From Naegleria gruberi (Eukaryota), in assembly GCA_000004985.1 (NCBI GenBank), contig GG738861.1: a stretch of DNA of 64,000 bases. The stretch is one strand, 5' to 3'. Below, in pieces: positions 27,837 to 64,000 of the stretch; the first letter of the stretch is position 1; each line of letters starts with the position of its first letter. The notes beneath the pieces were generated by a model. It had not been told where the DNA came from, made no database searches, and saw only the letters and a program-made list of their open reading frames with translations. The position numbers and the translations under genes were made by a program.

Positions 27837-30800
27837 ATGCCACCAGTAAGTAAATCGTTCTCTCTCTGAAATAATTTTTACACCTTTGAAATTCTAGAAA
27901 CCTGCTCCGGGAACGCAAAAGATTACATCCTTCTTTTCTGTGAAGAAACCAACATCTTCATCAACAGATAAATCACCAAAAAAGCCCTCAGCAAGGTTTG
28001 TTATTTTAATTTAAATTTAAATTTACAATCAAATGCAGCAGTAGCAATGGCAATATTGAAAATCCAAACAAACGTAAAAGAGAGTCTGTCACCCTTGAAT
28101 TGAGTGATGATTCTGATGGATGTGCATCACCAATTCTTACCAGGTCTCAGAGAGCAGAACAAGTTAAATCTCCATCATCATCCACACCTTCCAAATCAAC
28201 AACAAGCACAACACCAACCAAATCTACACCAACTAAATCATCAGCATCTAAAACAACCACCAGTAGTACTAGCAGCAGTAGTAAATCAACCAAATCTACA
28301 CCAACTAAATCCACTGTCACACTCAAGAAGCAACCAACAAGTGTAAAAGATGAAGATTGGAGTGATGATGAAAGAGATTTTGGTAAAGACAAGATAGTGT
28401 TGAATAAGGCAACACCAACCAAGTCTCCAGTAGTAGCTCAAAAGAACACAAAGATTATATTGGATGATGATGCGCTCAGTAGTCAAGATGTTGTTTCATC
28501 CCCTTCCACTAAAAAGAGAAAGACTAGCTCTCCATTCACCAAATCGCCAAGAAAAGTCAAAGAAGAGGAAGTTGAGGAGAAACCTAAAACAACACCAAAG
28601 AAGGAGGTTAAAAAAGAGGAAAAGAAAAAAAAGAATGATGACGACGATGAAGAGAAACCAGCCGAAACCAAAAAGAGAAACTTTTATGATAAGACACAAC
28701 ATCAAAATCAGCAAAAAGCTAAAAATCATGGATGTAAAACTGTGCCTGTCGGAAAAGCAAATTGTCTCAAAGACAAATCTTTTGTTATTACTGGTCAAAT
28801 GGAATCACTCGATAGAGATGAAATGGAAGACCTCATTAAGCAATATGGAGGTGTGATTCGTGGAAATGTTTCTGGAAGAACCAGCTTTGTTGTAGTTGGT
28901 GATGGGCCTGGAGAAAGTAAAATGAAAAAAGTTAGAGAACACAAAACTAAGCAACTTTCAGAGGATGATTTGTTGGAAATGATTGCAAAATCAAACCCAA
29001 GTGGAAAAGATTCTATGGATGAAACAGATGATGATGTCAGTCCTCCACCACAAAAGTTTATTCCTCCTTCAAAACCAAACTCTGTTGGTGCTTCCACCAC
29101 TCAAGTTATCAAATCCAAAAATGCTGACGATCAACTTTGGGTTGAAAAGTACAAACCATCCACGTCTTCGCAAATTATTGGACATAATAAGGAATGTGGA
29201 CTTTTACTTAATTGGTTAAAGGAGTGGCATGCGAATCTTGACAAGGAAATTCAAGCTGCCTCAACGCAAACTAAGGGAAGAAAGAAAGCAGCAACTGAAT
29301 GGAAGAGAGCAGCCTTCCTATCTGGTCCTCCAGGTATTGGTAAATCAACTTCAGCAGCTCTAATTGCCAAGGAGGCTGGGTTTACAAATATTGTAGAATT
29401 GAATGCATCTGATAGTAGAAGCAAAAAGGCAATGAAGGAACAAATTGTAGAATCTTGTCTCTCCAATAATATTTCCAATTATTTCCAAAAGAAGGGTCAA
29501 CCAAAACCTAAAGATGACAAACAACGAACTATTGTTATCATGGACGAAGTTGATGGTATGTCGAGTGGTGATAGAGGTGGAGTTGTTGAGCTTGTTCAAA
29601 TTATCAAACAAACTCGTGTGCCTGTCATTTGTATTGCCAATGATAGATCTAAAATCTCCTTGAAAACTCTCATTACTCACTGTTTGGATCTCAAATTTAG
29701 CAGACCTAGCAAGGCTACAATTACCAAAAAATTATTGGAAGTCTGTAAGAAGGAAAATCTCAGCATTGACAATAATGCTTTGGAATATATGGTTGAATCT
29801 CTGAACAATGATATCAGAAGTGTGTTGAATAATCTCCAACTCATCAATAGATACAGTGCTAAAGATCATATTGGCTATTTAGACGCCAAGAGTAGTGACT
29901 TGACAAAAACCAGCTCAACAGACGGTATTTTTGATGTTGTAAAGGATGTACTTGGGCAAAACAGCAAAAAGTACAATGAAAGACTTGAAGACTTTTACTT
30001 TGATCCAATGCTTGTACCTCTGTTCGTTGAACAGAACTATATTAATATAAGGCCACCTGGAGATGATAAGGAGAGAATTCAAAGAATTTCATATGCATCT
30101 GATTCCATTTCTATGGGTGATATTGTTAATTCCAAGATTAGAAAGGAAATGTCATTTGGTCTCATGAATTCTCATGCATTCTACAGTACCATGTATCCTG
30201 CTTACTTTATTCGAGGTTCTTTCCAAGCATTGAGAGGTTATGACAAGTATTATCAATTCCCAGCCGTTTTGGGTAAAGGAAGTACAACAACAAAGAACTA
30301 TAATGCTCTTAAGACTATTCAAAAGACTACATCACTCAAAGCTAGTGCCGACACTTTGGAAATGTTAGACTACCTTCCACTTCTTTCTAAAACTCTTCTC
30401 AATCCTCTTTTGGGTGGAGACAAAGATGTTCAGGAAACAATTGAAGCAATGGATGAATATCAAATTTCTCGTGATGATTTAGAGTTTATGTGTGAATTAT
30501 CAACATTTAAGGGAAAGAATTCATCTGACCAAAATAAGGATTGGTTCTCTGAGATTGATACTAAAACCAAGACAGCTCTTACTAGACAATATAACAAAGC
30601 TCACAAGGGATTTAACAAGGTTAGTGCAGCAGCTGCCCTCTCAAAGGTTGAAGACGAGGAAAATCCTGAAGCAGAGGAAGAGGACGAAGAAGAAGATTTA
30701 AAGGCTGATAAGTTTGTTACCAAGATGAAGAATATTGCCAAACTTGAAGCATTTGAAAAGAAACGAGAAAAGGCTGAAAAAGCTGAAAAGAAGTCAACCA

Positions 30801-30916
30801 AAAAGACAACCAAGAAGGAGACAACAAAGAAAGAGTCAACCAAAAAAGAGTCAACTAGCAAAAAGGAAGTTAAAAAAGAGACTGAAAAAAAGCCACTTGT
30901 GCTTAAAAAGAAATAA
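27837..30916 (+). CDS. RFC1: Replication factor C large subunit (RFC1), 3 exons approx 27837..27845, 27898..27995, 28039..30916 (~995 aa). N-terminal PIP box encoded in the micro-exons
   Basis: Track ORF 28100..30916 begins at TTG; its frame stays open upstream to the acceptor AAATGCAG at 28037-38. Exon 1 is ATG CCA CCA | GTAAGT. Exon 2 encodes KPAPGTQKITSFFSVKKP... (Qxx[I]xx[F][F] PCNA-interacting motif) and ends AG|GTTTGT. BRCT domain (KSFVITGQMESLDRDEMEDLIKQYGG). AAA+ clamp-loader core (LSGPPGIGKST, IVIMDEVDG). K/E-rich C-terminus. Confidence 0.85.
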
Positions 30917-47817: not shown

Positions 47818-50742
47818 ATGCCCAACAATAACCAGGCATCATCTTCATCACAACAGACGATTCCAATCGGAAGAACACTCAATCCGGAGATGATTGCTTG
47901 TCTGGAGGAGGAACTACAAAGATGCTCCAAAAACACAAGGAATAATGGTGCCAAGCATTATGTTTTGGGGTTACGGAAGGCAATATCTTCCTTGGAAAAG
48001 TATCCAAAGAAATTGTATAATGGAAATGAAGCTAAAACTCTGAAGGGAATTGGAGATAAGATGGCCTATAGAATTGATAAATATTTGAAGGATAATAATA
48101 TTGATTTGGGGACTCCACCTCCGAATGCTGGAAATAATAGTAATCATAATAATAATAATGGAGGTGAAACAGATGGACAATCTGTGTCACAAGATGAATC
48201 GAATAATGATCAAACAGCAAAGAAGAGGAAAAGAACAAATAGAAAATACATTCCGAAATTTAAAACTGCTGCCTGGGCGATTATGATATCACTGTACAGA
48301 CATATTAAGAGTAGTGAAAAGGATTATGCTACAAAAACACAATTGATTGCTCTATGTGAAACACTGACTGATGTACCTATGGAACAATCAACCAATGCAT
48401 CTAAATATACTGGCTGGAGCTCAATGAAAACTCTAATGGAAAAAGAATTGATAACCTCAGAGAAGAAGGGAAGATCGAATGGTTTCATGCTCACTCCTAG
48501 AGGTAGAAAACTGGCAAGAAAACTTCACACAGCTGAGAAGGAAGTATCTGAACTTGAGTTTGAATGGGAAGAATCAGAGGAGGAAATGTCATCTGAAGAG
48601 GAACCAGAAGAACCAAAAGAAAAACCAAAAAAGAAAAAGAAACAACCAGTTAGCTCAGCAGAATCAGAGTCTCTTTCAAACTTTGAAGCAAGTCAATCCA
48701 GCCAACAATCAGACAGTGAAATAATTAGTCGTAGTTATGATTCCGATCCAGAGCTATGTGAAGATATATTCACTCAACTTGGATTTTCACAAAGAAAAAA
48801 CAATCCACCATCAATAACCAATGAACTCTCTCAATCATCACAAACAAGCTATAGTGAGCTTAGTGATGACGATGATGATATTCTACTCCACGAGAAAGAC
48901 GCCTCCCCAAAGCCCTCCATATCATCCAATACTTCATCTCAGAATCCTGTATATATGATCCTTTCAGATGATGAAGATGAGGATGTTGCATTTGATTATA
49001 GTAAGCTTCCTCTCAAATTCAGCTATATGGACAAACTAGATAAACCGGTCAATCGAATAGAGGATGCCAAGTTTCATTTCAGTACTTCAGCTGGTGAAAT
49101 AAGAATCAAGGTTCTACTCAAAAGTCCTTTGAAAAATGAAGAGACCCTTGCTGATCTATTTGATGAAATAATCGAAAAGAAGCGTGTAAATAATGAACTA
49201 ACAGTCACTGGCTTCATAAAGGAGTCGAGATGTGTACCTTATGCGAGCAATTTAGCTAAAAATCTGATTATTGATCCAGCTATTTTCAAATTCTATTCAA
49301 CAAATGAGATTGAGAACACTAGCAACAAGAAGAAATCATCAAAGGATAATATCAGTAGTGCTACCATATTTAATACAGATTTACAGACATGTAATCCTAT
49401 TGAGCGCGCACCATCCAGAGCCATCCAGCCATCCAAGCCAACCGTTGTACCTCTCGATATTGAACTAAGTGATGACGAAGATGTAACACTTGAGAAACCA
49501 GTCACTCAGAAAAAAACAAAGAAAAAGAAACACCTAGCCGAATCTTCAGAACCCTCTTCCTCCCAACAACAAACACAATATCGACCAGCAATTCCTGTGC
49601 CTAGACCAAGAGAAATGATGAGATCTATAGATTTTTCAATGCCACCACCATCCTTTGTTCCAGCCAGAAGTCTTGTTACTAACAACCAAATTAGCTCGTC
49701 CTCTACCTCCACAGCAAGTACATCAAGTAGTTCTCAATCCATACCGAATAGCACCCAAATTACCACCTCTAACCACATACCAACGAATCCAGTAATTCTC
49801 CAATCCAATAGACAACCCAAGACAATTGTAAACCTAAAGAGCTTTTTAGAAAATCCAGAACCTAATCCCTCCTTCGCCTTTTCAGCTGCTGACAGCAATA
49901 CTACCTCCACAAAATCAAATGATTTACCAAAAGTACCTTACAAGATTCACCTTATTATAGATCAAAGAGAGAGAACAGGACATAATGATAGAAAATCATT
50001 CTGTGACACACTTAAAAAACGAGGTGTAGATGCACTGATTTCACAACTTGGAATGGGAGATGTTATTTGGACACTCACAACTGAAGAGAGATCATATGTG
50101 TTGAATTATGTTTTGGAGAGAAAGGATATTAATGATCTAGCTGGAAGTATTAAGGATGGAAGATATAAGGAACAAAAATTCAGAATGAACAATTCTAATT
50201 GTTCCAATATTTTTTATTTGATTGAAAGAGGTTTCAAACACCAAGATCAACTCTCTCAGTCTTCACTTGAAACCTCCATTAGAAAGATTTTAACAGATGG
50301 CATTTGTGTAAAACATACTGCATCATTGGAAGCATCCATTAATTTTCTTGTCATCATGAACTCTCTCATTATAGAATTAGTTGAAAGAGATGGCCTTACA
50401 CCACACCAACTACTCATTCCACACGAAATTACTGGCGAAATGTACAATCCCTCACTCGAACAGTACAATGTTCTTTTCAAAAAGAATAATGACATTTCCA
50501 AGAATGAATTATTTGGCAGACAGCTCACTACCATCCAAGGTGTATCCTCTCAAATAGCAGAATCAATCATTAAGAAACATCCAACACCAACCTCCCTGTG
50601 TCAAGTCTTTCTGGACTCATCAACACCTCATGACCTGGCTCTGAAAAACTTTGCCATCGAATCATCAGTTGAAGGTGTTTGCACTCGTAAAATTGGAGCG
50701 AAACTCTCCCAGAAAATTTATCAATACTTTTTCCAAGATTAA
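47818..50742 (+). CDS. MUS81: Crossover junction endonuclease MUS81 (ERCC4/XPF-family nuclease), 974 aa, intronless
   Basis: N-terminal Mus81 helix-hairpin-helix region (LRKAISSLEKYPKKLYNGNEAKTLKGIGDKMAYRID). ERCC4 nuclease domain with the ERK motif region (IDQRERTGHND...GDVIWTL...VLERKDINDLAGSIKDGRY). C-terminal HhH2. Acidic S-rich linker. Confidence 0.85.
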   Translation: MPNNNQASSSSQQTIPIGRTLNPEMIACLEEELQRCSKNTRNNGAKHYVLGLRKAISSLEKYPKKLYNGNEAKTLKGIGDKMAYRIDKYLKDNNIDLGTPPPNAGNNSNHNNNNGGETDGQSVSQDESNNDQTAKKRKRTNRKYIPKFKTAAWAIMISLYRHIKSSEKDYATKTQLIALCETLTDVPMEQSTNASKYTGWSSMKTLMEKELITSEKKGRSNGFMLTPRGRKLARKLHTAEKEVSELEFEWEESEEEMSSEEEPEEPKEKPKKKKKQPVSSAESESLSNFEASQSSQQSDSEIISRSYDSDPELCEDIFTQLGFSQRKNNPPSITNELSQSSQTSYSELSDDDDDILLHEKDASPKPSISSNTSSQNPVYMILSDDEDEDVAFDYSKLPLKFSYMDKLDKPVNRIEDAKFHFSTSAGEIRIKVLLKSPLKNEETLADLFDEIIEKKRVNNELTVTGFIKESRCVPYASNLAKNLIIDPAIFKFYSTNEIENTSNKKKSSKDNISSATIFNTDLQTCNPIERAPSRAIQPSKPTVVPLDIELSDDEDVTLEKPVTQKKTKKKKHLAESSEPSSSQQQTQYRPAIPVPRPREMMRSIDFSMPPPSFVPARSLVTNNQISSSSTSTASTSSSSQSIPNSTQITTSNHIPTNPVILQSNRQPKTIVNLKSFLENPEPNPSFAFSAADSNTTSTKSNDLPKVPYKIHLIIDQRERTGHNDRKSFCDTLKKRGVDALISQLGMGDVIWTLTTEERSYVLNYVLERKDINDLAGSIKDGRYKEQKFRMNNSNCSNIFYLIERGFKHQDQLSQSSLETSIRKILTDGICVKHTASLEASINFLVIMNSLIIELVERDGLTPHQLLIPHEITGEMYNPSLEQYNVLFKKNNDISKNELFGRQLTTIQGVSSQIAESIIKKHPTPTSLCQVFLDSSTPHDLALKNFAIESSVEGVCTRKIGAKLSQKIYQYFFQD

Positions 50743-50899: not shown

Positions 50900-52714
50900 A
50901 TGACCCAAACATCATCAACACCATCCAAACTCAAGAACTTGTTGAAGAAGGTGAAAGCAAAGGCTGAAGAAGAACCTTCAACAACAACAACTTCTGAAGA
51001 AGCCACCAAGAATGTAGTAGTTGAAGAAACCAAGAATATTGAAGAAAATGAATCATCCCGAGAAGAACCAACAACAACAACTACTAACGAATCAAAATCA
51101 AGTGATAATAATGATTACTATAAGAGCTATGGATATACTATTGAAGATACAGCAGTTTCATCAAAAACATCAACCACTTCATCTTTTTTAACCAATGTAC
51201 ACATTAACAAACTTGCTTTATGCGAACCACTCACAAAAGCATTGTCAAATGAAGATTCTGGACTTTCCTTTGAATATATGACACCTATCCAAGCTCGTTC
51301 TATTCCAATTGCTTTGGCAGGTAAGGATTTACTTGCTCAAGCTAAAACTGGTAGTGGTAAAACATTGGCATTCCTTTTGCCATGTTTAGAGTTATTATAC
51401 AGAGCTGAATTTAAACCTAGAAATGGTACAGGAGTTATTATTTTGAGTCCAACTAGAGAATTGGCTATTCAAACCTATGCTGTTTGTAAATCATTAATGA
51501 CATTTATGAAACAAACTCATTGTTTGTTGATTGGTGGTCAATCTAAACATCAAGAAGGAGAAAAACTTGTTAAGGGTTGTAATATTGTCATTGCCACTCC
51601 AGGTAGATTGTTGGATCACTTACTTCACACAAAAGGATTTGTTTATTCTAATTTGATTTCACTTGTTTTGGATGAAGCTGATAGAATGTTGGATGATGGT
51701 TTTGAGGAAGAATTGAAAGCTATTGTTAAATTATTACCAACTAAAGGAAGACAAACTCTCTTATTCAGTGCCACTCAAACAACAAAGGTCGCTGATATTG
51801 CCAGAGTTAGTATTAAAAGAGATCCAGTTTTTGTTGGAATTGAAGATTTGAATAAGATTACCAAGACTGAAGAAACTGAAGAATATTCAACTGCTACAAA
51901 TTTGGAACAAGGATATGTTGTTGTTCCAGCAAGTGAAAAATTTGTTCTCCTCTATTCATTCCTTAAAAAGACAATGGCAACAACTCCTGGAAAGAAGGGA
52001 AAGAAGATTATCGTCTTTTTCAGTAGTTGTGCTGCTGTTAAATATTATTCAGAATTATTGAACTATATTAACGTTTCAGTGACACCTCTCCATGGTAAAA
52101 TGAAGCAAAATAAGAGAACACAAGCATTTATGAACTTTTGTGGTGCTGAAAGTGGTGTGTTACTTTCCACTGATGTTGCTGCTAGAGGTTTGGATATTCC
52201 AAAGGTTGACTGGATTGTTCAATATGATCCACCAGAAGCTCCAAAAGAATATATTCACCGTGTTGGTCGTACTGCTCGTGCTGGAAATGTTGGACGTGCT
52301 TTGCTCTTCCTCCTTCCATCTGAAACAGGATTTTTGAAATATTTGAGTGAATCAAACATTCCATTGAATGAATTGGATTTCCCTCGAACAAAGATGTCAA
52401 ATATTCAAGATCAACTCGAAAAGATTATTTCTTCCAATTACTATTTATTCAAGAATGCTGAAGAAGCATTCAAAGGTTTTATCAAATCGTATGCTTCACA
52501 TCCATTGAAGGATATTTTCTCATTCCAATTATTAGATGTTGCTGGTATTACCAAATCATTTGGTCTCAAGAATACTCCATATGTGGATTTGAAGAGTTTA
52601 GAAGTTGGTGCTTCAAGTGCCATTGAAAAGAAGAGAAAGAGCGACAATAAGTGGATTAAGAGTGGTGTTTCTCAAAAGAAGAAGGAAGATAAAAAGAAGA
52701 GAAAGACTGAATAA
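50900..52714 (+). CDS. DDX18: DEAD-box ATP-dependent RNA helicase (Has1/DDX18-like), 604 aa
   Basis: Q motif (FEYMTPIQARSIP). Motif I AKTGSGKTLAFLLP. Ib/PTRELA (SPTRELAIQ). DEAD (LVLDEADRMLD). SAT. Motif VI HRVGRTARAG. K-rich C-terminus typical of the Has1 subfamily. Confidence 0.9.
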   Translation: MTQTSSTPSKLKNLLKKVKAKAEEEPSTTTTSEEATKNVVVEETKNIEENESSREEPTTTTTNESKSSDNNDYYKSYGYTIEDTAVSSKTSTTSSFLTNVHINKLALCEPLTKALSNEDSGLSFEYMTPIQARSIPIALAGKDLLAQAKTGSGKTLAFLLPCLELLYRAEFKPRNGTGVIILSPTRELAIQTYAVCKSLMTFMKQTHCLLIGGQSKHQEGEKLVKGCNIVIATPGRLLDHLLHTKGFVYSNLISLVLDEADRMLDDGFEEELKAIVKLLPTKGRQTLLFSATQTTKVADIARVSIKRDPVFVGIEDLNKITKTEETEEYSTATNLEQGYVVVPASEKFVLLYSFLKKTMATTPGKKGKKIIVFFSSCAAVKYYSELLNYINVSVTPLHGKMKQNKRTQAFMNFCGAESGVLLSTDVAARGLDIPKVDWIVQYDPPEAPKEYIHRVGRTARAGNVGRALLFLLPSETGFLKYLSESNIPLNELDFPRTKMSNIQDQLEKIISSNYYLFKNAEEAFKGFIKSYASHPLKDIFSFQLLDVAGITKSFGLKNTPYVDLKSLEVGASSAIEKKRKSDNKWIKSGVSQKKKEDKKKRKTE

Positions 52715-53656: not shown

Positions 53657-53922
53657 ATTTTTTAAAGATTCAAAAATAAAATATTTTTATTTAAATTTAT
53701 CTTTTTTCAAACAACTCAATGATGGAATTGATATCAAGCCATTATTATTATTAATAATAAGAATACAAAATCACTCAAGATTGAATTTTTTAATATTCCA
53801 TCCAGATCGAAATAAACTATTTGATCATCGTCCGATTACTTGAATTTCATCAATTTTTAATAATAAAAAAAATTTCAAAGCCTAATTTCTTCAAAAGCTT
53901 CAAATAATTGATAGAAGAGAGA

Positions 53923-55866
53923 ATGTTTTCTAGTTTCGGAAATTCAGGGGAAGGTATTTCATTTGATGATTTCTTTGGATTTTCAGAGGATACATCATCA
54001 ACAGCAGCAACATCATCTACTCTGAATGTTGTTGTTCAGCAACAATCTGTCGCAGCTTCAATTGTTAATACGAATGAGAAGAAACAAGCTCAACCTTTGT
54101 TGCCTAAAAACAAGACACTTACTCATCAGCAACAACAGCAGCCATCTGTTGCTACTATGCCAAAGAAACCAGCAAAGGAAGTCATCGGTAGCAGTGAGGA
54201 AGAATCATCTTCCGATGATGATGAGGAAATGAAGGATAAGGTACAGCCTGGTGATGATTCCGATGAAGATGAAGAAATGAAAGAGAAGGAATATTCTTCT
54301 TCCTCCTCGAGTAGTGAGAGTAGCCAAGATGAGATTGAGGATATATCAATTCGGAAATCAACAAATATTGGAAAGCAAATTGTAAATGGTAATAAGGAGA
54401 ATCATAAACAATCAGTGAATACTGTGAAAAAAGCTCCTCCAAAGCAATCTAATATTCAACACATTTTGAATAAGGTGCCATCATCATCTAGTTCAGTACC
54501 GCAAATTGGAACGAAAAAGAAATTGTCACCACTCAAAGAAAAGAGAAATATCAAGGAAAAGACCGATAATTCAAAAAGAAAATTTATTCAAACCAAACTG
54601 GATAAGAGCATGTTTGAAAGGAGAGTTGAGCAGACACCTATGGATTCATCACTCTTTTGCATGTGCTGCAATACATTTGTTGCCTTAACAGGTGCATCAT
54701 CTCAAAACTCAGCAAAAAGAGTAAAGAAAGGTTCTTCTAAATATGAAGAATGGGATAAACATATAGAAAGTGAGGACCACTTGTTGAGGAAGGAGAGGCT
54801 GCAAAGACTCAATGTACTTTGCTTTATGAATAGCCCAACAAATAAGAGGTTTCATCATTTTGTAAATTCATTCTGTCTAATGTTTTTCCACCGAATTGAA
54901 ACACTAGCTATTGAATTTGCAAAAAAGAATAGAAAGAGAAAGTTTGAAATTTATGAGGAACATGAGGATTATATTCTGTTGGACTATGTCATTAATTTTA
55001 TTTATGCTCGAGTTGCAAATTTGCAATACGCAACCGATTTTGAAAAGATTTTGAAACAATTCTTAAATAATATGAGACAAGGCTCATTAAAGATTGCCAC
55101 CACAATTTGGGAACAATATAAGGAATTTTATTCCAAGATGAATGATGATGAGTTTGGTTATTTGCTCTCTGATATTGTACATCGAGCTTGGGATTGCATG
55201 AGACATTTGGCTTACTTTGGGAAAATTCAGGATCCAACTCAATTATTCATTGACGAGCCATTGGAATTCAAAGATTTTAAGAGTGAGAAAAAAGAATCAA
55301 GAGATGAAAGTGATTCTAGCTCCGATGATGAAGACTATGAAGAGCCAGAATATGACGAAGATGAGGAAGAGGAGGAGGACATTTTCAATGGTCAGCATCC
55401 TTACTTTGAAATGTTTATGAAAATGTACATTCAACACTTCTTATTTTTAAAGCCAATTGAGAAAATAATAAGTGAAGCTCTCGAACAATACAAATCCATT
55501 CTAGAAAAGGAGACCTTTTTCAATGAGTGGGAAGAAGAAATAGTGAAGAGAAAGAAGCTATTAATTTCACAGCAACAGATGTCAAGTAATGGCGGTAGTG
55601 CTGTAGATGATGAATCAAGTGATGAGAGTCCAACAATACCTCCACCAAAACCACAAGCTCCAAAGCAAAAATCAATTGAAGATTTGCTGTTTGGTTCAGC
55701 AGCCAACAATACCTTTGAGAGCTTCTTTTCTGTTAATACTACACCTCAAAAGGTAACAACTACAATCCAAACTCAAAGTAAGAAGAAGGCAGGAATATCA
55801 ACGCACGAGAATGAAACAATGGAAGAGGATGAAATGTGGAATTTACTAAGAAGAGATAATATTTGA
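53923..55866 (+). CDS. Hypothetical acidic/S-rich protein (track ORF starts at TTG 53908; first ATG 53923), ~647 aa
   Basis: Long open frame. Acidic serine clusters (SSEEESSSDDDEEMKD, DESDSSSDDEDYEEPEYDEDEEEEED). A central ~250-aa region of ordinary composition with no recognised domain. Confidence 0.45.
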   Translation: MFSSFGNSGEGISFDDFFGFSEDTSSTAATSSTLNVVVQQQSVAASIVNTNEKKQAQPLLPKNKTLTHQQQQQPSVATMPKKPAKEVIGSSEEESSSDDDEEMKDKVQPGDDSDEDEEMKEKEYSSSSSSSESSQDEIEDISIRKSTNIGKQIVNGNKENHKQSVNTVKKAPPKQSNIQHILNKVPSSSSSVPQIGTKKKLSPLKEKRNIKEKTDNSKRKFIQTKLDKSMFERRVEQTPMDSSLFCMCCNTFVALTGASSQNSAKRVKKGSSKYEEWDKHIESEDHLLRKERLQRLNVLCFMNSPTNKRFHHFVNSFCLMFFHRIETLAIEFAKKNRKRKFEIYEEHEDYILLDYVINFIYARVANLQYATDFEKILKQFLNNMRQGSLKIATTIWEQYKEFYSKMNDDEFGYLLSDIVHRAWDCMRHLAYFGKIQDPTQLFIDEPLEFKDFKSEKKESRDESDSSSDDEDYEEPEYDEDEEEEEDIFNGQHPYFEMFMKMYIQHFLFLKPIEKIISEALEQYKSILEKETFFNEWEEEIVKRKKLLISQQQMSSNGGSAVDDESSDESPTIPPPKPQAPKQKSIEDLLFGSAANNTFESFFSVNTTPQKVTTTIQTQSKKKAGISTHENETMEEDEMWNLLRRDNI

Positions 55867-55894: not shown

Positions 55895-57184
55895 TTACCA
55901 ATCTCCATCTCTTACATCATTTGGATTCCAAACAGTTTTTGTTGTAATGACATTATTAATCTTTACAGATTGATTGTTTTGGGTTGAATAGCCATACTTT
56001 TGGATATCAACTTGCTTGACACTCTTTACATTGGAAAGAATGGAGCTTTCTCCAATAGTTCCCAAATTTTCATTATAGTGATCAAACCATGGATATTTGT
56101 ATGAAGAATAAGTCTTTGCACTGATTGGACATGGAGGGGCTTTTTCTCCTGTTATTTGTTGATACATGTCAGAGTTGACAATATGTACAAATACTCTTGA
56201 CTTGGTTCTTTCATCCCAAAATGATGGGCCATAAGGATCTTTAGCAATATCTTGTTTCATTTTACCTCCTGCTGCCAATCCCAATTCTTGTGCATTGCTG
56301 GATTGAGATCTACTTCTTTTTTCTTCACATTTAAGACTTGAAAGTGAACTTCTTGGCATTGCTGGTGAGCAACATTTCATTTGTGGAATACTTGCGGTTG
56401 AAGAAGTTGAAAACATTGTTGGTATTGGATAAGCTTGAGAAACTGGAGGAGAGTATGCAACAATGGATTTCTTTGTTGGAATGATTGAATGTTTCTTCTT
56501 TGGAGATGACCATGTTGTTTCATTCATTTCTGGAAACATTGATTTTGCCTTTTCTGAGAATGGATTGTAACAAATAATTTGAGCACCTCCTACTTTATCT
56601 TCTCCAGTAACCTGTGATTCGACAGTATATCCTTGTCCAAGTGGCATGGCAATGAATTGTTTGATTGTTCCATTTCCATTATTAATACCATCTAACCATT
56701 TTTGAGCTGGAGTGACACAATAATCTTGAACTTTTCTTGATTTGATTTCTTCATCCCATTGTTCTCCACTTAAAGCATTCACTTTACCAACAGCAACTTT
56801 GAGAGCATGAGGATTTGTGGAATTTTCAAATTCCATCCACATGGCTTCACGTTGGTGTAAACAAACAAATACACCACCTTTTTGTTTCCAGCTTTCAGGG
56901 ACTTTGTTAATATAATCATCTACTCTTTTGATTGGGAAGGTCCCCAAAGATGGAGGCAAGGGATAGATTTTCCCATCGTCAGGTATTCTTAAAGTTCTAT
57001 GTAATTTGATTTTCAATTCGTTTTTAGAGGTTTTGGCACTGTAAAATACAATCGAGTCATTGACAACCTTAATGGAAAGTTTGTTAGTTGGTTCTGAACT
57101 TGGAGGTTCGATTGGAAATTTAGGTGGACAATAAGTTGAGTTGGCATGCATAGGAGGACATGAAATTGGTATTCCAGTAAACAT
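55895..57184 (-). CDS. Hypothetical conserved-looking protein, 429 aa, no family recognised
   Basis: True ATG. Non-repetitive composition with segments such as RTLRIPDDGKIYPLPPSLGTFPI and KDPYGPSFWDERTKSRVFVHIVNSDMYQQITGEKAPP that look like a globular domain. S/T-rich linker. Confidence 0.5.
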   Translation of the reverse strand: MFTGIPISCPPMHANSTYCPPKFPIEPPSSEPTNKLSIKVVNDSIVFYSAKTSKNELKIKLHRTLRIPDDGKIYPLPPSLGTFPIKRVDDYINKVPESWKQKGGVFVCLHQREAMWMEFENSTNPHALKVAVGKVNALSGEQWDEEIKSRKVQDYCVTPAQKWLDGINNGNGTIKQFIAMPLGQGYTVESQVTGEDKVGGAQIICYNPFSEKAKSMFPEMNETTWSSPKKKHSIIPTKKSIVAYSPPVSQAYPIPTMFSTSSTASIPQMKCCSPAMPRSSLSSLKCEEKRSRSQSSNAQELGLAAGGKMKQDIAKDPYGPSFWDERTKSRVFVHIVNSDMYQQITGEKAPPCPISAKTYSSYKYPWFDHYNENLGTIGESSILSNVKSVKQVDIQKYGYSTQNNQSVKINNVITTKTVWNPNDVRDGDW

Positions 57185-57484: not shown

Positions 57485-60400
57485 TTATCTAAATTTTGGT
57501 TTTTCGTCAACTTCTGTTGGCTTGACCTTCTTAGTTGAAGATTCTGTTACATCAGCATCAAATAATGCTGAAGTTTCGTTTGGATTGGAATCACCAATAT
57601 TCCTTCTCTTTCTGTTTCCTCCAAACAATGACGATGTATTCAAAGAAGCAGTTTGAGGTGTTTTCAGTTCTTCAACATTTTCCTTATCTACTGGAGAAAA
57701 GTTTCTTGTTGTAATATTGGAAACTAACATCTTGGATCTTCCCATAATTGGTCTATCTTTGGTGAGGGCCGATTGGTTGAGATTGAGTGGAGTTGGAAGT
57801 GAAGCTGATTCACTTGTTGTTGGTCCTCGTTTAATGTAGAATGAGGTTCTGTCTCTGAGAGGTACTTCTGTTGGTGAGTGATTCTTCTCAAAATTGGTAT
57901 TTCCAAACAGAGCTGGTCTTGGTGGAGGATTAAATTGTCGTTTCATATCAGAAAGTTCTTTTTGAGCTCTTTGTAATTCATCCCTCAATTCATCATTTTC
58001 TCTCTTAATCTTTAATTGATATTGAATCTTTTGCTTGTGATTGTTGTGTCCAATTATCTTTTCATGATCTTTTCTTAATGATTCAAGCTCTTCCTTTAGA
58101 CTATTAACTTCAGTGACACTATCTGCATACTTTTGTCTCAAGCTTTCCAATGAAGCCTCTAATTGGTTCTTTTCCGATTTGTATTTTTCTTTCAACTTTT
58201 TCAATGTCTCTTCGTGAATCATTTGTTGTGAGAGGCTTCGTTTTTCGAGGGTAGATAATTGTTCTTTGCTCTCATCATAGTTATTTCTCAAATCGTTAAG
58301 GTCAGACTCTTTTCTCAAGAGGGTTTCTCTTTCAGTTTGAAGAGTTTTGACCAGACTTTCACACTTCTTTTCTACAGTGTTTAATTTTTCAGTCAATCTG
58401 GTGAATTCTTCTCCTGATTGCAATGAACGAATAGATTCCAATTGTTGTTCAATTTCATTTTGCTTGGATTTGATTTGATCTTCTAGAGATTCAATTGTGC
58501 TCAACAGCTTGATATTCTCATTGGAAGCACCATCACTTGAGGTTTTCAAAGCTTCTAATTGTCTTAGAGTTGAATTGAGTTTTTGATTGCTATTGTTCAA
58601 CTCTTGGCCTTTGCTATCGAGCTCAGTCTCGAGGTTAGACACTTGTTCTTCGAGTTTTTGCACTTCCTGTTCACGTTCTTGCAACTTTTCAATGCTCTCT
58701 TCAGCGAGTTGTGTAATGCTTTCATTGTGTTGTTGTACCTCAGAATACTTGCGCTTGAAACTTTCAAGTTCAGAGGTCAAATTAGAGATTTCTGTTTCCT
58801 TCAATTTGAGTTCAATATTTTCATTGATTAATTTATCGTTCAATTCTCTGAACATGGAGTCCTTTTCAGAGGAAATATTGTTGACAAGTTGAACTTGTTT
58901 CTCAAGAGCCAAGGTCAGTTCAGAAATTTGATCGGTGAATTGTGATTTGGATTGTTCCAATTCTTCATTGAGAATCTTGTTTGCTTCCATATTTTCGCCA
59001 AGTTCGAATTTCAATGCCTCAATCAATTCTTGAAGAGAATTGATTTGTTCCTCTCTTTCTCTTCTTAACTGTTCTTCGTTTTCCAATAGTTGTTTCTTTT
59101 CTTCCTCGGAGGTATTACCCATAGAGCTCAAGTGTTGTAAAAGGTCATCATTTCGTTCTTGTTCCAGAGCTAAGCATTGTTTAAGGTTGTTGATAGCATC
59201 TTCATGGGTTGATTTGATGGTTTGGAGAGTATTGAGGGCACTTTGATATTTTTCAGTCATTTCAATCAATTCCCTTTCCGATACTCGAGCACATTCCTTT
59301 AGTTTTTCATTTTCTTCAATGTAGGTAGTGATTTTACCGTTCATGGTTTGAATTTCTTCTACAAGTTGATTTTCACGATCTTGTAACTTGACAATACTTT
59401 CTTCAGCAAGTTGTGTAATACTTTCATAATTTTGCTCTGATTCAGAGAAGTTAATCTTAAGGGTCTCAATTTCGGAGGTTAGCTTTGATAATTCTGCTTC
59501 CTTCATTTTCAGGATTATATTTTCATTGTGAAGTTTTTCATTCAATTCTCTCAGTGTGATATCTTTTTCAGAGGAAATATTGTTGACAAGTTGAACTTGT
59601 TTCTCAAGAGCCAAGGTCAGTTCAGAAATTTGGTCGGTGAACTGTGATTTGGATTGTTCCAATTCTTCATTGAGAATCTTGTTTGCTTCCATATTTTCGC
59701 CAAGTTCGAATTTCAATGCCTCAATCAATTCTTGAAGAGAATTGATTTGTTCTTCGCTTTCTCTTCTAGATTTATCCTCGCTTTCAAGGAATTCTTTGTG
59801 AATTGTGTTGAGCTGTTCAAGTTCGTCGATTGTACTTTGGTATTTATCTTTCATTTCTGCCAAGTCTCTTTCAGATACTTGAATAGAATCCTTTAGCTTA
59901 TCATTGGCTTCACCATAGTGTTTGATTTGTTCAAAGGAGCTCATCAAAGCCTTCTCCTTCTCATCAAGTGCAGACATAAGCATACACTTGGTTGCCACTT
60001 CCTGTTCTAATTGAGAGGATAGAACAGTTTCCTTTTGTTGAGTTTGTTCAGCAAACATTGATTCTTTAGATTTGACTTCTTCAAGTTGAGACTTTAAAGA
60101 TTCAATGCTGGCATCTCTTTCAGATATAGATAGAAGTAACTCTTGCTCTCTGAAAGACAAAGTATCAATACTGGTATTAAGAGTTTCTATTACTACTTTC
60201 AGTTTGGATATTTCCTCATTGGATTGTTCATTCTCCTGCATAGATTCTCCAAATAGCTGTTCTGTGCTTTCTAACTGTTGTTTGAGAGCTTCAATCTCTT
60301 GGTGTGCGAGTATTAATTTAGACTCTGCCTCGTGTTTGGCCATTTCCTCACGTTCTCTCATTTCCTCCAACATTCTAATAGTTTCTTCTTGACCTTTTTG

Positions 60401-62773
60401 GACCATTTGTTGGTTTTCCAAACCTTCCAACATTGCTTCAATTTGAGTCCTCTCCTCTTTTAATTTGATATTTTCTGAAAGCATATTCTCCTTATCAGAT
60501 GCTACTTGTTCTAAAAGTTGCTTGATGCTCTCAAGCTCGCTCCATGCCATTTGCTCCTTTTCTTGGCTTTGTGTTATATCCTTCTTAAGTGAGGCAATAG
60601 TTTCCAAGGATTCCTCATACATTTGTTCTAACCTTGTTATTTCTCCTAACAGTGTTTGATTTTCACTGATTGCTACTTGTTCTTGGAGTATTGAAGAGTT
60701 TCTTCTGTGGCTCTTTTCCATGTCTTGAATTTTGTTGGCAAGTTGTTCCTTTTCGCCAGTTAAATGTCTGATTGAAAGCTCTAAACTTTGAATGTAGGAA
60801 TGTAATTCCTTAAACAACTCCTTGTTAGCTCCAAATTGCTTGGAAAATTGGGATTCATATGAATTAAGTTGATCTTTCAGTTCCATATTTTCAATCTTGA
60901 GCTGAATAACATCTGGATGTTGTTCAGGTGAGAGGGCCTTTTGGAGGGCACTGTCGGCTATAGAGAGGAATTGTTCTTCATTATCAAGTGTGAAATTTTC
61001 AAAATTGAATTTGGAAAACTTTTGTGGTGATTGTGGTCTATCAAAGTCAAAATCTAAACCAGAGACAAAATCTTGTTTTGGATTTTTCACTGATTTTCCA
61101 GTGAGTCTAGCGATCTTTGCCTCTCGCAATCTTAGCAAAAATCTAGTTGATGTTAATAAGCGATCCTTTGAGGATGCAACCTTCTTGAGCTCTTCAACAC
61201 GATGAGTAAGAATGGAATTCTTCTCCTCGTGTTCATCTGTCTGAGCAGAGAGATATACATGTTGTTGTTGTAATGCTATAATATATTGTTCCTTTTCATT
61301 TTCATCCATAGAAAGTTGTGGAGTAGGAGTTTGTGGAACTTCTGAAACTCGTTTGTTTGCCTCCAATAACTGTTTCCTCAGGAGTTTAATTTGTTCTTGC
61401 AAAAATGTAATACTTCCAGATGTCTCTTCATTGATTTTAGCTTCATTCTTAATTCGTTTAGCTCTTTGAGCAAATGTAAGAGTTGACAAGGATTCTGATA
61501 ATGAATTAATGGCAGGACTAATGTTCGCAATAACACAAGTCTTAGAATTCCCTCCAAGAGAATCCTTAAGTAAGAATGTTAATTTGCTATCTCTGTATTG
61601 TACATGCCTAGAAATACCATTAGCAACGTCAACTAGATCCTTGATAACTTTTCCTAGAGTAGAAAGAGACTTATTGATAGAACAAGCTTCTTTCAATCTG
61701 TCTCCTTCGGTATTAGATGTTGATTGTCTTTCCGAACCAGCAAGATCGATAAGATTAAGCCTAGATGTACGCGTTTTTGTTCCTCCCTCTGATGTTTCTT
61801 GTGATTTCATATAGATGGTAAAAACAGAATGAGAACGTGATGATTGATTATTCATAGATGTTGAGCCAACATGTCTATTTGATAGACCCTTCTTCAAAAT
61901 GGCTAAAGCTTCAACTGGTGTTGCAATATCCTCATGAATTAATTGTTCAACATAAACTCCAGATTTGATATCCTCTCTTAAATTTAAACTCTTGGATACA
62001 GTACCACCATTAAAAAGAGGTAATTTAGGTGTTGAATCCAATAAATCTGTAATTCTTTCGTTGTAAATTTCCAGAAATGAGCAACTGACAATAAACTTGA
62101 TTTCTTTTTGTTGTCTTTTCTTTTCAATTTCTGAAAATATGTATGATAGAACTCTTGGTATTAAACCTGCAGATGAAGGCAAGTGTAAATTGTGCATTGA
62201 TGACAACAAGTCATCTTCCATTACGTCGTCATTGTGTGACGTTCCCATAGTAAAAGTTTTACCACTTCCTGTTTGCCCATAACAAAAGATTGTACCGTTA
62301 TATCCAGCTAGATAACTATCCACTATTGGTTTGCCACAAAACTCGAACATATCTTTTTGTGTTGTTGTTGGGCTTGCTACGTGGTCGAAAGTAAAGGTTT
62401 TTGGTTTCTCTTTTGGATTATTGCTAATAACTTGAAGTGATCTTTTTGTTGCTGGATCTACTTGGATGCAATTTTGTGTTTCATTGTCAAAGAGTGGTCT
62501 AACTCTTACTACCACTCTCACACTCGATTTATCGTCATCATCTTTTGAAAATATTTCTGTCCTGTTGGTTGCAGACAGAGTTTCGTCATCACCTAAAGAA
62601 GGAAGAGGTGAGAATAATCCTCCTCTTGAGACTATTGGAGACACCATAAAGGATGGAGTTTGAATGTTTTGTCTTCTTGTTGTGAAGGAACTTGTTGTTG
62701 GAGAGGCAAGCATTCGTTCCAAATCTTGGGACGGAGAAAACACGCCACTCAAATTATTTAAATTATTCCTCAT
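57485..62773 (-). CDS. Kinesin-like protein with N-terminal motor domain and ~1300-aa coiled-coil stalk containing internal duplications (CENP-E/kinesin-7- or kinesin-12-like), 1762 aa
   Basis: Motor motifs GQTGSGKTFTMG (P-loop), SSRSHSVF (switch I), LIDLAGSER (switch II). Neck followed by continuous heptad-rich E/K/L/Q sequence. Intronless from a true ATG. Confidence 0.9.
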   Translation of the reverse strand: MRNNLNNLSGVFSPSQDLERMLASPTTSSFTTRRQNIQTPSFMVSPIVSRGGLFSPLPSLGDDETLSATNRTEIFSKDDDDKSSVRVVVRVRPLFDNETQNCIQVDPATKRSLQVISNNPKEKPKTFTFDHVASPTTTQKDMFEFCGKPIVDSYLAGYNGTIFCYGQTGSGKTFTMGTSHNDDVMEDDLLSSMHNLHLPSSAGLIPRVLSYIFSEIEKKRQQKEIKFIVSCSFLEIYNERITDLLDSTPKLPLFNGGTVSKSLNLREDIKSGVYVEQLIHEDIATPVEALAILKKGLSNRHVGSTSMNNQSSRSHSVFTIYMKSQETSEGGTKTRTSRLNLIDLAGSERQSTSNTEGDRLKEACSINKSLSTLGKVIKDLVDVANGISRHVQYRDSKLTFLLKDSLGGNSKTCVIANISPAINSLSESLSTLTFAQRAKRIKNEAKINEETSGSITFLQEQIKLLRKQLLEANKRVSEVPQTPTPQLSMDENEKEQYIIALQQQHVYLSAQTDEHEEKNSILTHRVEELKKVASSKDRLLTSTRFLLRLREAKIARLTGKSVKNPKQDFVSGLDFDFDRPQSPQKFSKFNFENFTLDNEEQFLSIADSALQKALSPEQHPDVIQLKIENMELKDQLNSYESQFSKQFGANKELFKELHSYIQSLELSIRHLTGEKEQLANKIQDMEKSHRRNSSILQEQVAISENQTLLGEITRLEQMYEESLETIASLKKDITQSQEKEQMAWSELESIKQLLEQVASDKENMLSENIKLKEERTQIEAMLEGLENQQMVQKGQEETIRMLEEMREREEMAKHEAESKLILAHQEIEALKQQLESTEQLFGESMQENEQSNEEISKLKVVIETLNTSIDTLSFREQELLLSISERDASIESLKSQLEEVKSKESMFAEQTQQKETVLSSQLEQEVATKCMLMSALDEKEKALMSSFEQIKHYGEANDKLKDSIQVSERDLAEMKDKYQSTIDELEQLNTIHKEFLESEDKSRRESEEQINSLQELIEALKFELGENMEANKILNEELEQSKSQFTDQISELTLALEKQVQLVNNISSEKDITLRELNEKLHNENIILKMKEAELSKLTSEIETLKINFSESEQNYESITQLAEESIVKLQDRENQLVEEIQTMNGKITTYIEENEKLKECARVSERELIEMTEKYQSALNTLQTIKSTHEDAINNLKQCLALEQERNDDLLQHLSSMGNTSEEEKKQLLENEEQLRREREEQINSLQELIEALKFELGENMEANKILNEELEQSKSQFTDQISELTLALEKQVQLVNNISSEKDSMFRELNDKLINENIELKLKETEISNLTSELESFKRKYSEVQQHNESITQLAEESIEKLQEREQEVQKLEEQVSNLETELDSKGQELNNSNQKLNSTLRQLEALKTSSDGASNENIKLLSTIESLEDQIKSKQNEIEQQLESIRSLQSGEEFTRLTEKLNTVEKKCESLVKTLQTERETLLRKESDLNDLRNNYDESKEQLSTLEKRSLSQQMIHEETLKKLKEKYKSEKNQLEASLESLRQKYADSVTEVNSLKEELESLRKDHEKIIGHNNHKQKIQYQLKIKRENDELRDELQRAQKELSDMKRQFNPPPRPALFGNTNFEKNHSPTEVPLRDRTSFYIKRGPTTSESASLPTPLNLNQSALTKDRPIMGRSKMLVSNITTRNFSPVDKENVEELKTPQTASLNTSSLFGGNRKRRNIGDSNPNETSALFDADVTESSTKKVKPTEVDEKPKFR
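58863..59070. repeat. Intragenic direct repeat copy 1 (~210 bp, ~98% identical to copy 2) inside the kinesin coiled-coil coding region
   Basis: ttttcagaggaaatattgttgacaagttgaacttgtttctcaagagccaaggtcagttcagaaatttg...gaattgatttgttc is shared with 59565..59772. It encodes the duplicated peptide REREEQINSLQELIEALKFELGENMEANKILNEELEQSKSQFTDQISELTLALEKQVQLVNNISSEKD. Confidence 0.8.
59565..59772. repeat. Intragenic direct repeat copy 2 (period ~702 bp relative to copy 1)
   Basis: Near-identical to 58863..59070, with 3-5 mismatches (atcggtgaattg vs ggtcggtgaactg; ttcctctcttt vs ttcttcgcttt). Flanks are diverged but still paralogous at protein level. Confidence 0.8.
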
Positions 62774-63539: not shown

Positions 63540-64000
63540 ATGTACCCACACAGTGGAAGTATCAATACACCTGCTCATGATGAGTTTAATGATGATGAAT
63601 TCGACCGACTGGTGGGCCTATCACTGAATAAAATGTCTACGCTGACACCCAATAACAATAATAATCAACAAAATCAGTGGTATTTCTCTGATAATATGTT
63701 TGGAGATTTTAATTTAGGAGGAATGAATAATGGTGGTGTTACTAGTAGTTTGGATACAAGTCAGTTGGCTTTTACTCCACTCATTGAACAACATCGAAAT
63801 AATGATGATTGTTGCCAATTGAATACTACTAGCACTTTTGATATTGATAATGATATTGATGCCATGACAAACAAAACTACACCAACAACTCAAGGAAAAT
63901 CAAAGGAAAAGAAAAAGCCAAAGATTGCATGCGTTTATTGTAACAAATTGCACAGTATGTACTAGTCACAATATGAAATTCCTTAAACATTCAATTTTTC
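63540..64000 (+). CDS. 5' part of a gene encoding an N/D-rich protein ending in a Cys-containing motif (…KIACVYCNKLHSM); probably continues past a GTATGT donor at ~63955 and beyond the window
   Basis: True ATG at 63540. The 141-codon ORF ends where CACA|GTATGTACTAG provides a consensus donor immediately before the stop. Partial. Confidence 0.4.

What the first reader, a model, noticed from the sequence alone, without database searches (positions are those of the whole stretch)
58863..59772. Near-identical ~210-bp direct repeat 702 bp apart inside the kinesin coiled-coil
The stalk contains a ~215-aa duplicated module whose flanks have diverged, but a ~69-aa core is identical in protein and ~98% identical in DNA. 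That pattern points to recent gene conversion or unequal crossing-over within the gene. Such repeats predict length polymorphism of the stalk between strains and are assembly-collapse hotspots.
Basis: seen in the sequence. Interest (0 to 1): 0.55.

Follow-up and report, generated by a model that had tools for sequence, protein, structure and literature searches.

The report
Gene-conversion patch in duplicated kinesin stalk
A Naegleria gruberi KIF15-like kinesin carries an old tandem duplication of a ~200-aa piece of its coiled-coil stalk, and a ~200-bp patch inside it has recently been copied from one repeat to the other; this is real but an ordinary kind of gene evolution.

Summary
The window is Naegleria gruberi. 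The gene at 57485-62773 (minus strand) is the annotated 1762-aa kinesin D2VBC5, whose motor is closest to KIF15 (kinesin-12).

The stalk holds two head-to-tail copies of one module: copy 1, aa 949-1146, and copy 2, aa 1147-1380.
- The copies are 702 nt out of register over their last two-thirds.
- Most of the module has diverged: 70% DNA identity, dS 0.9-1.7, dN 0.22-0.39.
- An internal 188-nt tract (58863-59050 versus 59565-59752) differs at only 2 synonymous sites.
- Extended to 203 nt, the tract is 98.0% identical.
- The boundaries are sharp on both sides (binomial P = 3e-26; 0 of 200,000 permutations).

Unequal crossing-over alone would not give a two-sided patch.

The orthologues in N. 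lovaniensis, in a Logan-assembled relative and in Willaertia have one module and no DNA repeat, so the duplication is specific to the N. gruberi lineage. Copy 2 is the ancestral-type copy; copy 1 lacks a conserved 36-aa segment.

Strain length polymorphism and assembly correctness could not be tested. This is an ordinary example of a known process and of low interest.

The parts
57485..62773 (-). Intron-less 1762-aa kinesin gene of Naegleria gruberi (D2VBC5_NAEGR), KIF15/kinesin-12-like
   Evidence: Single ORF. 100% identical over its full length to the NCBI/UniRef N. gruberi 'kinesin'. The best hits outside Heterolobosea are named KIF15.
61451..62506 (-). Kinesin motor domain (aa 90-441)
   Evidence: Pfam PF00225, E = 1.7e-109. 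The best solved-structure hits are four KIF15 motor entries at about 333 bits; the next family scores 260 bits.
59336..59929 (-). Stalk repeat copy 1 (aa 949-1146, 198 aa), the derived copy lacking the 36-aa segment
   Evidence: Local protein alignment of the two modules. BLASTP of copy 1 against copy 2 gives 235 bits; coiled-coil background is about 50 bits. Alignment with the orthologues.
58634..59335 (-). Stalk repeat copy 2 (aa 1147-1380, 234 aa), collinear with the single module of the orthologues
   Evidence: It scores 159-172 bits against one site each in N. lovaniensis and the Logan orthologue, and 117 bits in Willaertia.
59565..59767 (-). Near-identical core tract in copy 1 (strict tract 59565-59752); encodes aa ~1003-1070
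   Evidence: Offset-702 identity profile and mismatch list.
58863..59065 (-). Near-identical core tract in copy 2 (strict tract 58863-59050); encodes aa ~1237-1304
   Evidence: 2 mismatches in 188 nt and 4 in 203 nt. The left boundary is sharp, with 8 mismatches in the 13 nt at 58850-58862.
59096..59203 (-). 36-aa segment (aa 1191-1226, EDAINNLKQCLALEQERNDDLLQHLSSMGNTSEEEK) present only in copy 2. It is conserved in all single-copy orthologues and contains the predicted helix break MGNTS.
   Evidence: Alignments. AlphaFold2 single-sequence model breaks at aa 1218-1222.
59021..59045 (.). Perfect 10-nt-arm palindrome with a 5-nt spacer inside the core (copy 2). Its twin lies at 59723-59747 in copy 1.
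   Evidence: These are the only such palindromes in the gene; 0.07 are expected per gene from codon shuffles. The significance is marginal because the two are copies of one sequence.
57938..58216 (-). C-terminal coiled-coil segment with the IGHNNHKQKIQYQLKIKRENDELRDEL motif (aa 1520-1612), a sub-threshold match to HMMR_C
   Evidence: Pfam PF15908 scores 19.7 bits, E = 0.0011, below the 28.6-bit cut-off. The same family is pre-computed on most KIF15 hits.

Best explanation
The coiled-coil stalk of the N. gruberi kinesin-12-like motor contains an old, lineage-specific tandem duplication of one stalk module.

Origin of the two copies:
- Copy 2 keeps the ancestral layout.
- Copy 1 later lost a 36-aa segment.
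- The two copies then diverged to about 70% DNA identity, with saturated synonymous divergence.

The conversion event:
- More recently, a tract of about 190-200 bp in the middle of the module was overwritten in one copy, using the other copy 702 bp away as template.
- This is intragenic non-allelic gene conversion. The likely route is repair of a break or stalled fork by synthesis-dependent strand annealing on the same chromatid, the sister chromatid or the homologue.
- Since then, 2 to 4 point differences have accumulated.

Shown versus inferred:
- Shown: the duplication, its extent, the two-sided patch, and the drop in synonymous as well as non-synonymous divergence.
- Inferred: the repair mechanism, the direction of transfer, and whether homogenisation was one event or recurrent.

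Likely functional consequence (inferred): the stalk is about 29-35 nm longer (198-234 residues at 0.1485 nm per residue) and displays the conserved LQELIEALK-containing segment twice.
For: - Repeat geometry and identity profile.
- Codon-level contrast: core dN = 0 and dS = 0.14; flanks dN = 0.22-0.39 and dS = 0.92-1.73.
- Mismatch positions show sharp boundaries on both sides.
- Statistics: binomial P = 3e-26; 0 of 200,000 permutations reach the observed run; Fisher P = 2e-4 for identical-codon use at conserved residues.
- The flank identity of 70% is far above the in-frame background of 30%, so the flanks really are homologous and old.
- The orthologues hold one module each, collinear with copy 2, and have no DNA repeat of 50 nt or more.
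- There is no other copy of the tract in the 64-kb window, no Rfam match, and the mRNA fold of the core is unremarkable, z = -0.66. Nucleotide-level selection or a mobile element is therefore not indicated.
Against: - There is only one genome sequence and no read-level data, so a consensus artefact cannot be formally excluded.
- The orthologues have only one module. The classical phylogenetic test, in which the copies group by species in the tract but by position in the flanks, cannot be run.
- Flank identity of about 70% offers little homology to start strand invasion. A single late event would need the core to have stayed similar already, which fits recurrent conversion rather than one event.
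- The core begins with the motif best conserved among orthologues (LQELIEALK), so purifying selection contributes to the identity at the protein level.
Confidence: 0.85

Rival explanations
1. Assembly or consensus artefact: reads from the two repeat units were mixed in the core, so the reference shows an artificially homogenised tract or a wrong copy number.
For: No independent sequence of this gene from N. gruberi could be found. The protein cluster has 1 member on 1 contig, and the metagenome scan was empty. Direct repeats are known trouble spots for assemblers (general knowledge).
Against: - The two cores still differ at 2-4 sites, all at third codon positions. The reading frame stays open through both copies for 1762 codons.
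- The tract is only about 200 nt and is embedded in flanks that differ at 30% of sites. Any read longer than about 300 nt is anchored unambiguously.
- From my own knowledge, not verified here: the reference was assembled from Sanger reads, which are longer than the tract.
Confidence: 0.05
2. Recent duplication with rapid divergence of the flanks: the whole module duplicated recently, and relaxed or positive selection then changed everything except a strongly constrained core.
For: The core has dN = 0 and includes the motif most conserved across orthologues.
Against: - Selection on the protein does not change synonymous sites, yet flank dS is 0.9-1.7 against 0.14 in the core (about 0.05 in the strict tract).
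- Even at residues identical in both copies, the flanks use the same codon in only 45 of 68 cases, against 60 of 65 in the core.
- The 36-aa indel and further small indels also indicate age.
Confidence: 0.03
3. Nucleotide-level functional constraint: the ~200-nt tract is a cis-acting element needed twice, for example an RNA structure, an antisense transcript or a binding site, so both copies are held identical by selection on the DNA or RNA.
For: Each core contains a perfect 10+10-nt palindrome, with 0.07 expected per gene. A 101-codon ORF on the opposite strand (58587-58892) overlaps one edge of copy 2.
Against: - No Rfam family matches at E <= 0.1.
- The mRNA fold of the tract is not more stable than shuffles, z = -0.66.
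- The opposite-strand ORF has a TTG start, covers only 30 nt of the tract and has no counterpart at copy 1.
- The orthologues have the region only once.
Confidence: 0.04
4. Insertion of a mobile or dispersed repeat into both modules.
For: None beyond the sharp boundaries of the tract.
Against: - The tract is in frame and collinear with the homologous flanks at exactly the same offset of 702 nt. It encodes the part of the module that aligns with the orthologues.
- There is no further copy in the 64 kb.
- There are no terminal repeats or target-site duplications at the boundaries.
Confidence: 0.01

Closest known systems
Non-allelic (ectopic, intragenic) gene conversion between tandem paralogous repeats: concerted evolution of internal repeats, as described for many repeat-containing genes
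   Same: Old paralogous units carry an internal tract of near-identity bounded on both sides. Synonymous divergence drops in the tract. The tract length of about 200 bp lies in the usual range of tens to hundreds of bp (range from general knowledge).
   Different: There are only two units, and only about one third of the unit is homogenised. No species comparison with both copies is available, so concerted evolution over time, as opposed to one event, is not shown.
Kinesin-12 / KIF15 (Xklp2) mitotic kinesins
   Same: N-terminal motor closest to KIF15 (333 against 260 bits). The stalk is very long and proline-free. The C-terminal IGHNNHKQKIQY... motif resembles the HMMR_C/KIF15 tail.
   Different: - At 1762 aa the protein is longer than animal KIF15 (about 1390 aa).
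- The HMMR_C match is below Pfam's cut-off.
- The internal 198/234-aa duplication is absent from the other heterolobosean orthologues and is not a family feature.
- The function in Naegleria is untested, and I found no paper that mentions it.
Independent expansion of the same stalk module in an unnamed heterolobosean orthologue (P0004, ENA ERZ27315067, locus L001)
   Same: The homologous HQELIEALK..ELETQ segment is repeated, with 3 copies at L001 5263, 5560 and 6019. This segment is again the best-conserved part of the repeat at the DNA level, up to 83% identity.
   Different: The unit length and register differ (spacings of 297 and 459 nt). The copies are 63-83% identical, and there is no near-identical tract.

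Membership tests
Intragenic non-allelic gene conversion tract | Two paralogous sequence units with demonstrably homologous flanks | tested here: met
   The flanks are 70% identical over 244 nt; in-frame background is 30 +/- 3.7%. Protein alignment of the modules scores 235 bits.
Intragenic non-allelic gene conversion tract | A contiguous tract of much lower divergence, bounded on both sides and longer than chance allows | tested here: met
   188 nt with 2 mismatches. Binomial P = 3e-26, and 0 of 200,000 permutations reach it (maximum 99 nt). Boundaries are at 58862/58863 and 59050-59066.
Intragenic non-allelic gene conversion tract | The drop in divergence affects synonymous sites, not only amino-acid-changing sites | tested here: met
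   dS is 0.14 in the core against 0.92-1.73 in the flanks. The same codon is used at identical residues in 60/65 cases against 45/68.
Intragenic non-allelic gene conversion tract | Phylogenetic incongruence: in the tract the copies group by species, in the flanks by position | not testable with these tools
   All available orthologues have a single module. No closer relative of N. gruberi was found.
Kinesin-12 (KIF15/Xklp2) | N-terminal kinesin motor domain that groups with KIF15 motors | tested here: met
   PF00225 covers aa 90-441. The top four solved structures are KIF15 at about 333 bits; the next family scores 260 bits. Non-heterolobosean database hits are named KIF15. No formal phylogeny was made.
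Kinesin-12 (KIF15/Xklp2) | Long alpha-helical coiled-coil stalk | tested here: met
   There is no proline between aa 621 and 1615, and the composition is rich in E, L, K and Q. The AlphaFold2 model of aa 940-1400 is helical throughout except for two short breaks. Dimeric coiled-coil formation itself was not tested.
Kinesin-12 (KIF15/Xklp2) | C-terminal HMMR_C-type leucine-zipper tail (TPX2-dependent spindle targeting in animals) | tested here: inconclusive
   PF15908 scores 19.7 bits, E = 0.0011, below the 28.6-bit cut-off, over aa 1520-1612.
Kinesin-12 (KIF15/Xklp2) | Spindle localisation and plus-end-directed motility | not testable with these tools
   This needs experiments. No paper on this Naegleria protein was found.
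Variable-number tandem repeat (length-polymorphic coding repeat) | Head-to-tail repeat units | tested here: met
   Copy 1 ends at aa 1146 and copy 2 starts at aa 1147.
Variable-number tandem repeat (length-polymorphic coding repeat) | Copy number differs between individuals or strains | not testable with these tools
   No second N. gruberi sequence of the gene is available.
Mobile element / dispersed repeat | Additional copies elsewhere and element termini | tested here: not met
   No other copy lies in the 64-kb window. The tract is in frame and collinear with the orthologues. The rest of the genome was not searched.

The most novel reading that the evidence does not exclude
The core is not the product of one accidental conversion. 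It is kept identical by recurrent conversion because the motor needs two identical copies of a partner-binding stalk segment, the part that starts with the conserved LQELIEALK motif. Alternatively, the palindrome-bearing tract is a recombination hotspot that generates in-frame one-, two- and three-module stalk-length variants among N. gruberi strains, which would tune spindle geometry.
Probability: 0.08. Interest if true: 0.4.

Novelty: new member of a known kind. Interest (0 to 1): 0.2.

Why it matters
The finding matters little beyond this gene.

- It is a clean, small example of a gene-conversion tract inside a coding tandem duplication, in an organism whose recombination and sexual cycle are poorly documented.
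- It marks a 702-nt unit that could be lost or gained in frame. That could be used as a strain marker, and it is a place to treat short-read assemblies with caution.
- It records that the Naegleria KIF15-like kinesin has a lineage-specific stalk extension.
- The same module expanded independently in another heterolobosean, which suggests that this part of the stalk tolerates length change.

Tried and rejected
- A stalk-only protein search for fragments of the gene from other N. gruberi assemblies returned nothing, not even the protein itself. Coiled-coil words probably saturated the word index, so this negative result is uninformative.
- The scan of JGI metagenome contigs with peptides of the module, including ENMEANKI from the core, gave 93 pattern matches. 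None was confirmed as a relative.
- Literature searches found no paper with both Naegleria and kinesin-12. Two Naegleria microtubule papers do not mention KIF15 or kinesin-12. A search for intragenic conversion in coiled coils returned only plant NLR and other unrelated papers. The N. gruberi genome paper is not in the library, so my statement about Sanger sequencing rests on my own knowledge.
- RNA-element explanations were tested and not supported: no Rfam match and an mRNA fold z-score of -0.66.
- The opposite-strand ORF 58587-58892 was dismissed as a by-product of the skewed composition. It has a TTG start, no counterpart at copy 1 and only a 30-nt overlap with the tract.
- A tree-based conversion test was abandoned because the orthologues have only one module.
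- The donor copy could not be identified, because the two cores encode the same peptide.

Full report
**What the window and gene are.** The window has about 34% G+C throughout. The region of the finding lies inside one uninterrupted ORF on the minus strand, 57485-62773, of 1762 codons. Its product is 100% identical over its full length to the protein that NCBI and UniRef call 'kinesin' of Naegleria gruberi, D2VBC5_NAEGR, so the window is N. gruberi nuclear DNA.
- Pfam finds a kinesin motor domain at aa 90-441, E = 1.7e-109.
- Among solved structures the four best matches are KIF15 motor domains at about 333 bits; the next kinesin family reaches 260 bits.
- Outside Heterolobosea, the best database hits are proteins named KIF15.
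- The stalk has no proline between aa 621 and 1615 and is rich in E, L, K, Q and S.
- A single-sequence AlphaFold2 model of aa 940-1400 is helical throughout except for two short breaks.
- The C-terminal IGHNNHKQKIQYQLKIKRENDELRDEL region gives only a sub-threshold match to HMMR_C, the tail family pre-computed on most KIF15 hits: 19.7 bits against a cut-off of 28.6.

I therefore call it a kinesin-12/KIF15-like motor. The tail feature is inconclusive and no phylogeny was made.

**Check of the observation.** A direct repeat with a start-to-start spacing of exactly 702 nt is found by the repeat finder, by alignment and by an ungapped identity profile at that offset.
- The mismatch list defines a strict tract, 58863-59050 versus 59565-59752. 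It is 188 nt long with two differences, at 58931 and 58940. Both are third-position synonymous transitions.
- At the protein level the identical run is 65 aa, aa 1007-1071 = 1241-1305. It is 69 aa if one S/R difference is allowed.
- On the low-coordinate side the boundary is abrupt, with 8 mismatches in the 13 nt before 58863.
- On the high-coordinate side there is a 15-nt transition zone, and dense mismatches begin at 59066.

**Extent and age of the duplication.** A local protein alignment shows two head-to-tail modules, copy 1 at aa 949-1146 (window 59336-59929) and copy 2 at aa 1147-1380 (window 58634-59335). Copy 2 contains a 36-aa stretch (aa 1191-1226) that copy 1 lacks. The modules are therefore 198 and 234 aa long, not about 215 aa each.
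- Outside the core, the ungapped block at offset 702 is 70.1% identical over 244 nt.
- In-frame 188-nt comparisons elsewhere in the same stalk give 30% +/- 3.7%, with a maximum of 54%. The flanks are truly homologous but old.
- Nei-Gojobori estimates are dN 0.22-0.39 and dS 0.92-1.73 in the four flank segments. In the 65-codon core they are dN 0 and dS 0.14.
- At residues that are identical in both copies, the same codon is used in 60 of 65 cases in the core and 45 of 68 in the flanks, Fisher P = 2e-4.
- At the flank mismatch rate, the probability of at most 2 mismatches in 188 nt is 3e-26.
- In 200,000 permutations of the mismatch positions, the longest stretch with at most 2 mismatches never exceeded 99 nt.
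- No other direct repeat of 80 nt or more exists in the 64-kb window.

**Comparison with relatives.** Four full-length orthologues at 40-47% identity were retrieved:
- N. lovaniensis (P0002);
- a Logan assembly of run SRR29240419 (P0003), close to N. lovaniensis;
- an ENA metagenome contig (P0004);
- Willaertia magna (P0005).

BLASTP with each N. gruberi module finds a single strong site in N. lovaniensis, P0003 and Willaertia. Copy 2 scores 159, 172 and 117 bits there, against a coiled-coil background of about 45-65 bits. The alignment shows these single modules to be collinear with copy 2, including the 36-aa segment with its conserved S-[MI]-G-x-x-[SG]-EEEK motif. The DNA of these three orthologues contains no direct repeat of 50 nt or more.

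From this I conclude three things:
- The duplication arose in the N. gruberi lineage after its separation from the N. lovaniensis group.
- Copy 2 is the ancestral-type copy.
- Copy 1 is the derived copy, which lost the segment holding the only predicted helix break within copy 2 (aa 1218-1222).

The metagenomic orthologue P0004 has multiplied the homologous HQELIEALK..ELETQ stretch on its own. It has three copies at 63-83% DNA identity with different spacing. This part of the stalk has therefore changed length more than once in the group.

**Mechanism.** An old duplication with a young internal patch that has two boundaries and affects synonymous sites is the expected product of non-allelic gene conversion between the two units. 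This is the explanation I commit to, with confidence 0.85.
- A single unequal crossover would alter copy number or give a hybrid unit that is identical up to one end. It does not produce an internal patch.
- The repair pathway (synthesis-dependent strand annealing after a break, using the other unit on the same or the sister chromatid), the direction of transfer and the number of events are all inferred.
- The flanks, at 70% identity, offer little homology for strand invasion. It is therefore likely that the core never diverged far, and repeated conversion seems more likely than a single late event. That cannot be decided here.
- Because 702 = 3 x 234, loss or gain of a unit by unequal exchange within the 200-nt tract would stay in frame.

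**Rivals.**
- (i) Assembly artefact, 0.05. The two cores still differ at 2-4 third-position sites, the frame is intact, and the tract is short and flanked by sequence that differs at 30% of sites. Misplacing reads longer than about 300 nt is therefore unlikely. That the reference was made from Sanger reads is my own knowledge and was not verified. No reads and no second N. gruberi sequence were available.
- (ii) Recent duplication with fast flank divergence, 0.03. This is contradicted by the saturated synonymous divergence and the indels of the flanks.
- (iii) Nucleotide-level constraint, 0.04. There is no Rfam match, the mRNA fold z-score is -0.66, and the opposite-strand ORF barely touches the tract. 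The one oddity is a perfect 10+10-nt palindrome in each core (59021-59045 and 59723-59747), with 0.07 expected per gene. It counts as one event and is only marginally unusual.
- (iv) Mobile element, 0.01. The tract is collinear and in frame with the orthologous sequence, and there are no other copies.

**Novelty and verdict.** I found no paper that mentions this protein or a Naegleria kinesin-12, so the repeat is probably undescribed. The phenomenon itself is textbook.
- Novelty rating: new member of a known kind.
- Interest: 0.2.
Conversion is supported, some numbers are corrected, unequal crossing-over alone is insufficient, and the polymorphism and collapse predictions are untested.

Noticed in passing
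window 59021-59045 and 59723-59747: A perfect 10-nt-arm palindrome with a 5-nt spacer (AATCAATTCT TGAAG AGAATTGATT; it encodes QINSLQELIE on the minus strand) lies inside each copy of the converted core, near its promoter-proximal boundary. These are the only such palindromes in the 5.3-kb gene, with 0.07 expected from codon shuffles. It could be a break-prone site, but the two are copies of one sequence.
   Followed up: partly
L001 5263-5338, 5560-5635, 6019-6094 (ENA ERZ27315067 contig k141_2142091): An unnamed heterolobosean orthologue (P0004) has independently repeated the homologous HQELIEALK..ELETQ stalk segment three times. The copies are 63-83% identical in DNA, with spacings of 297 and 459 nt. 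A second repeat family lies at L001 5881 and 6181.
   Followed up: partly
window 59096-59203 (aa 1191-1226): A 36-aa segment ending in SSMGNTSEEEK is conserved in all single-copy orthologues. It contains the only predicted helix break within copy 2 and is absent from copy 1. It may be a hinge of the stalk.
   Followed up: partly
aa 1067-1087 of the kinesin (window ~59513-59575): The AlphaFold2 single-sequence model has a low-confidence, partly non-helical stretch at the C-terminal edge of the core in copy 1. The equivalent position in copy 2 (aa 1301-1321) is confidently helical. This may be an artefact of the monomer model folding back on itself.
   Followed up: no
window 16688-21361(-), 9974-13036(+), 28100-30916(+), 47818-50742(+), 50900-52714(+): The neighbouring long ORFs are ordinary eukaryotic genes: an RCC1-repeat protein kinase, a class I aminoacyl-tRNA synthetase, the RFC1 large subunit, the MUS81 endonuclease and a DEAD-box (SPB4-like) helicase.
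   Followed up: partly
window 53908-55866(+), 55895-57184(-), 4110-6446(-), 63540-63965(+): These long ORFs next to and elsewhere around the kinesin gene have no Pfam family at E <= 1e-5. They were not examined further.
   Followed up: no
window 58001-60000: This interval has the strongest AT skew of the window, -0.30 on the plus strand. It probably reflects the A-rich (E/K/Q/N codon) coding strand of the coiled-coil stalk on the minus strand.
   Followed up: no
(tool behaviour): A protein search with the 438-aa stalk-only query returned no hit at all, not even the source protein. The word-index pre-filter appears to be saturated by coiled-coil words, so negative results for such queries carry no weight.
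   Followed up: no
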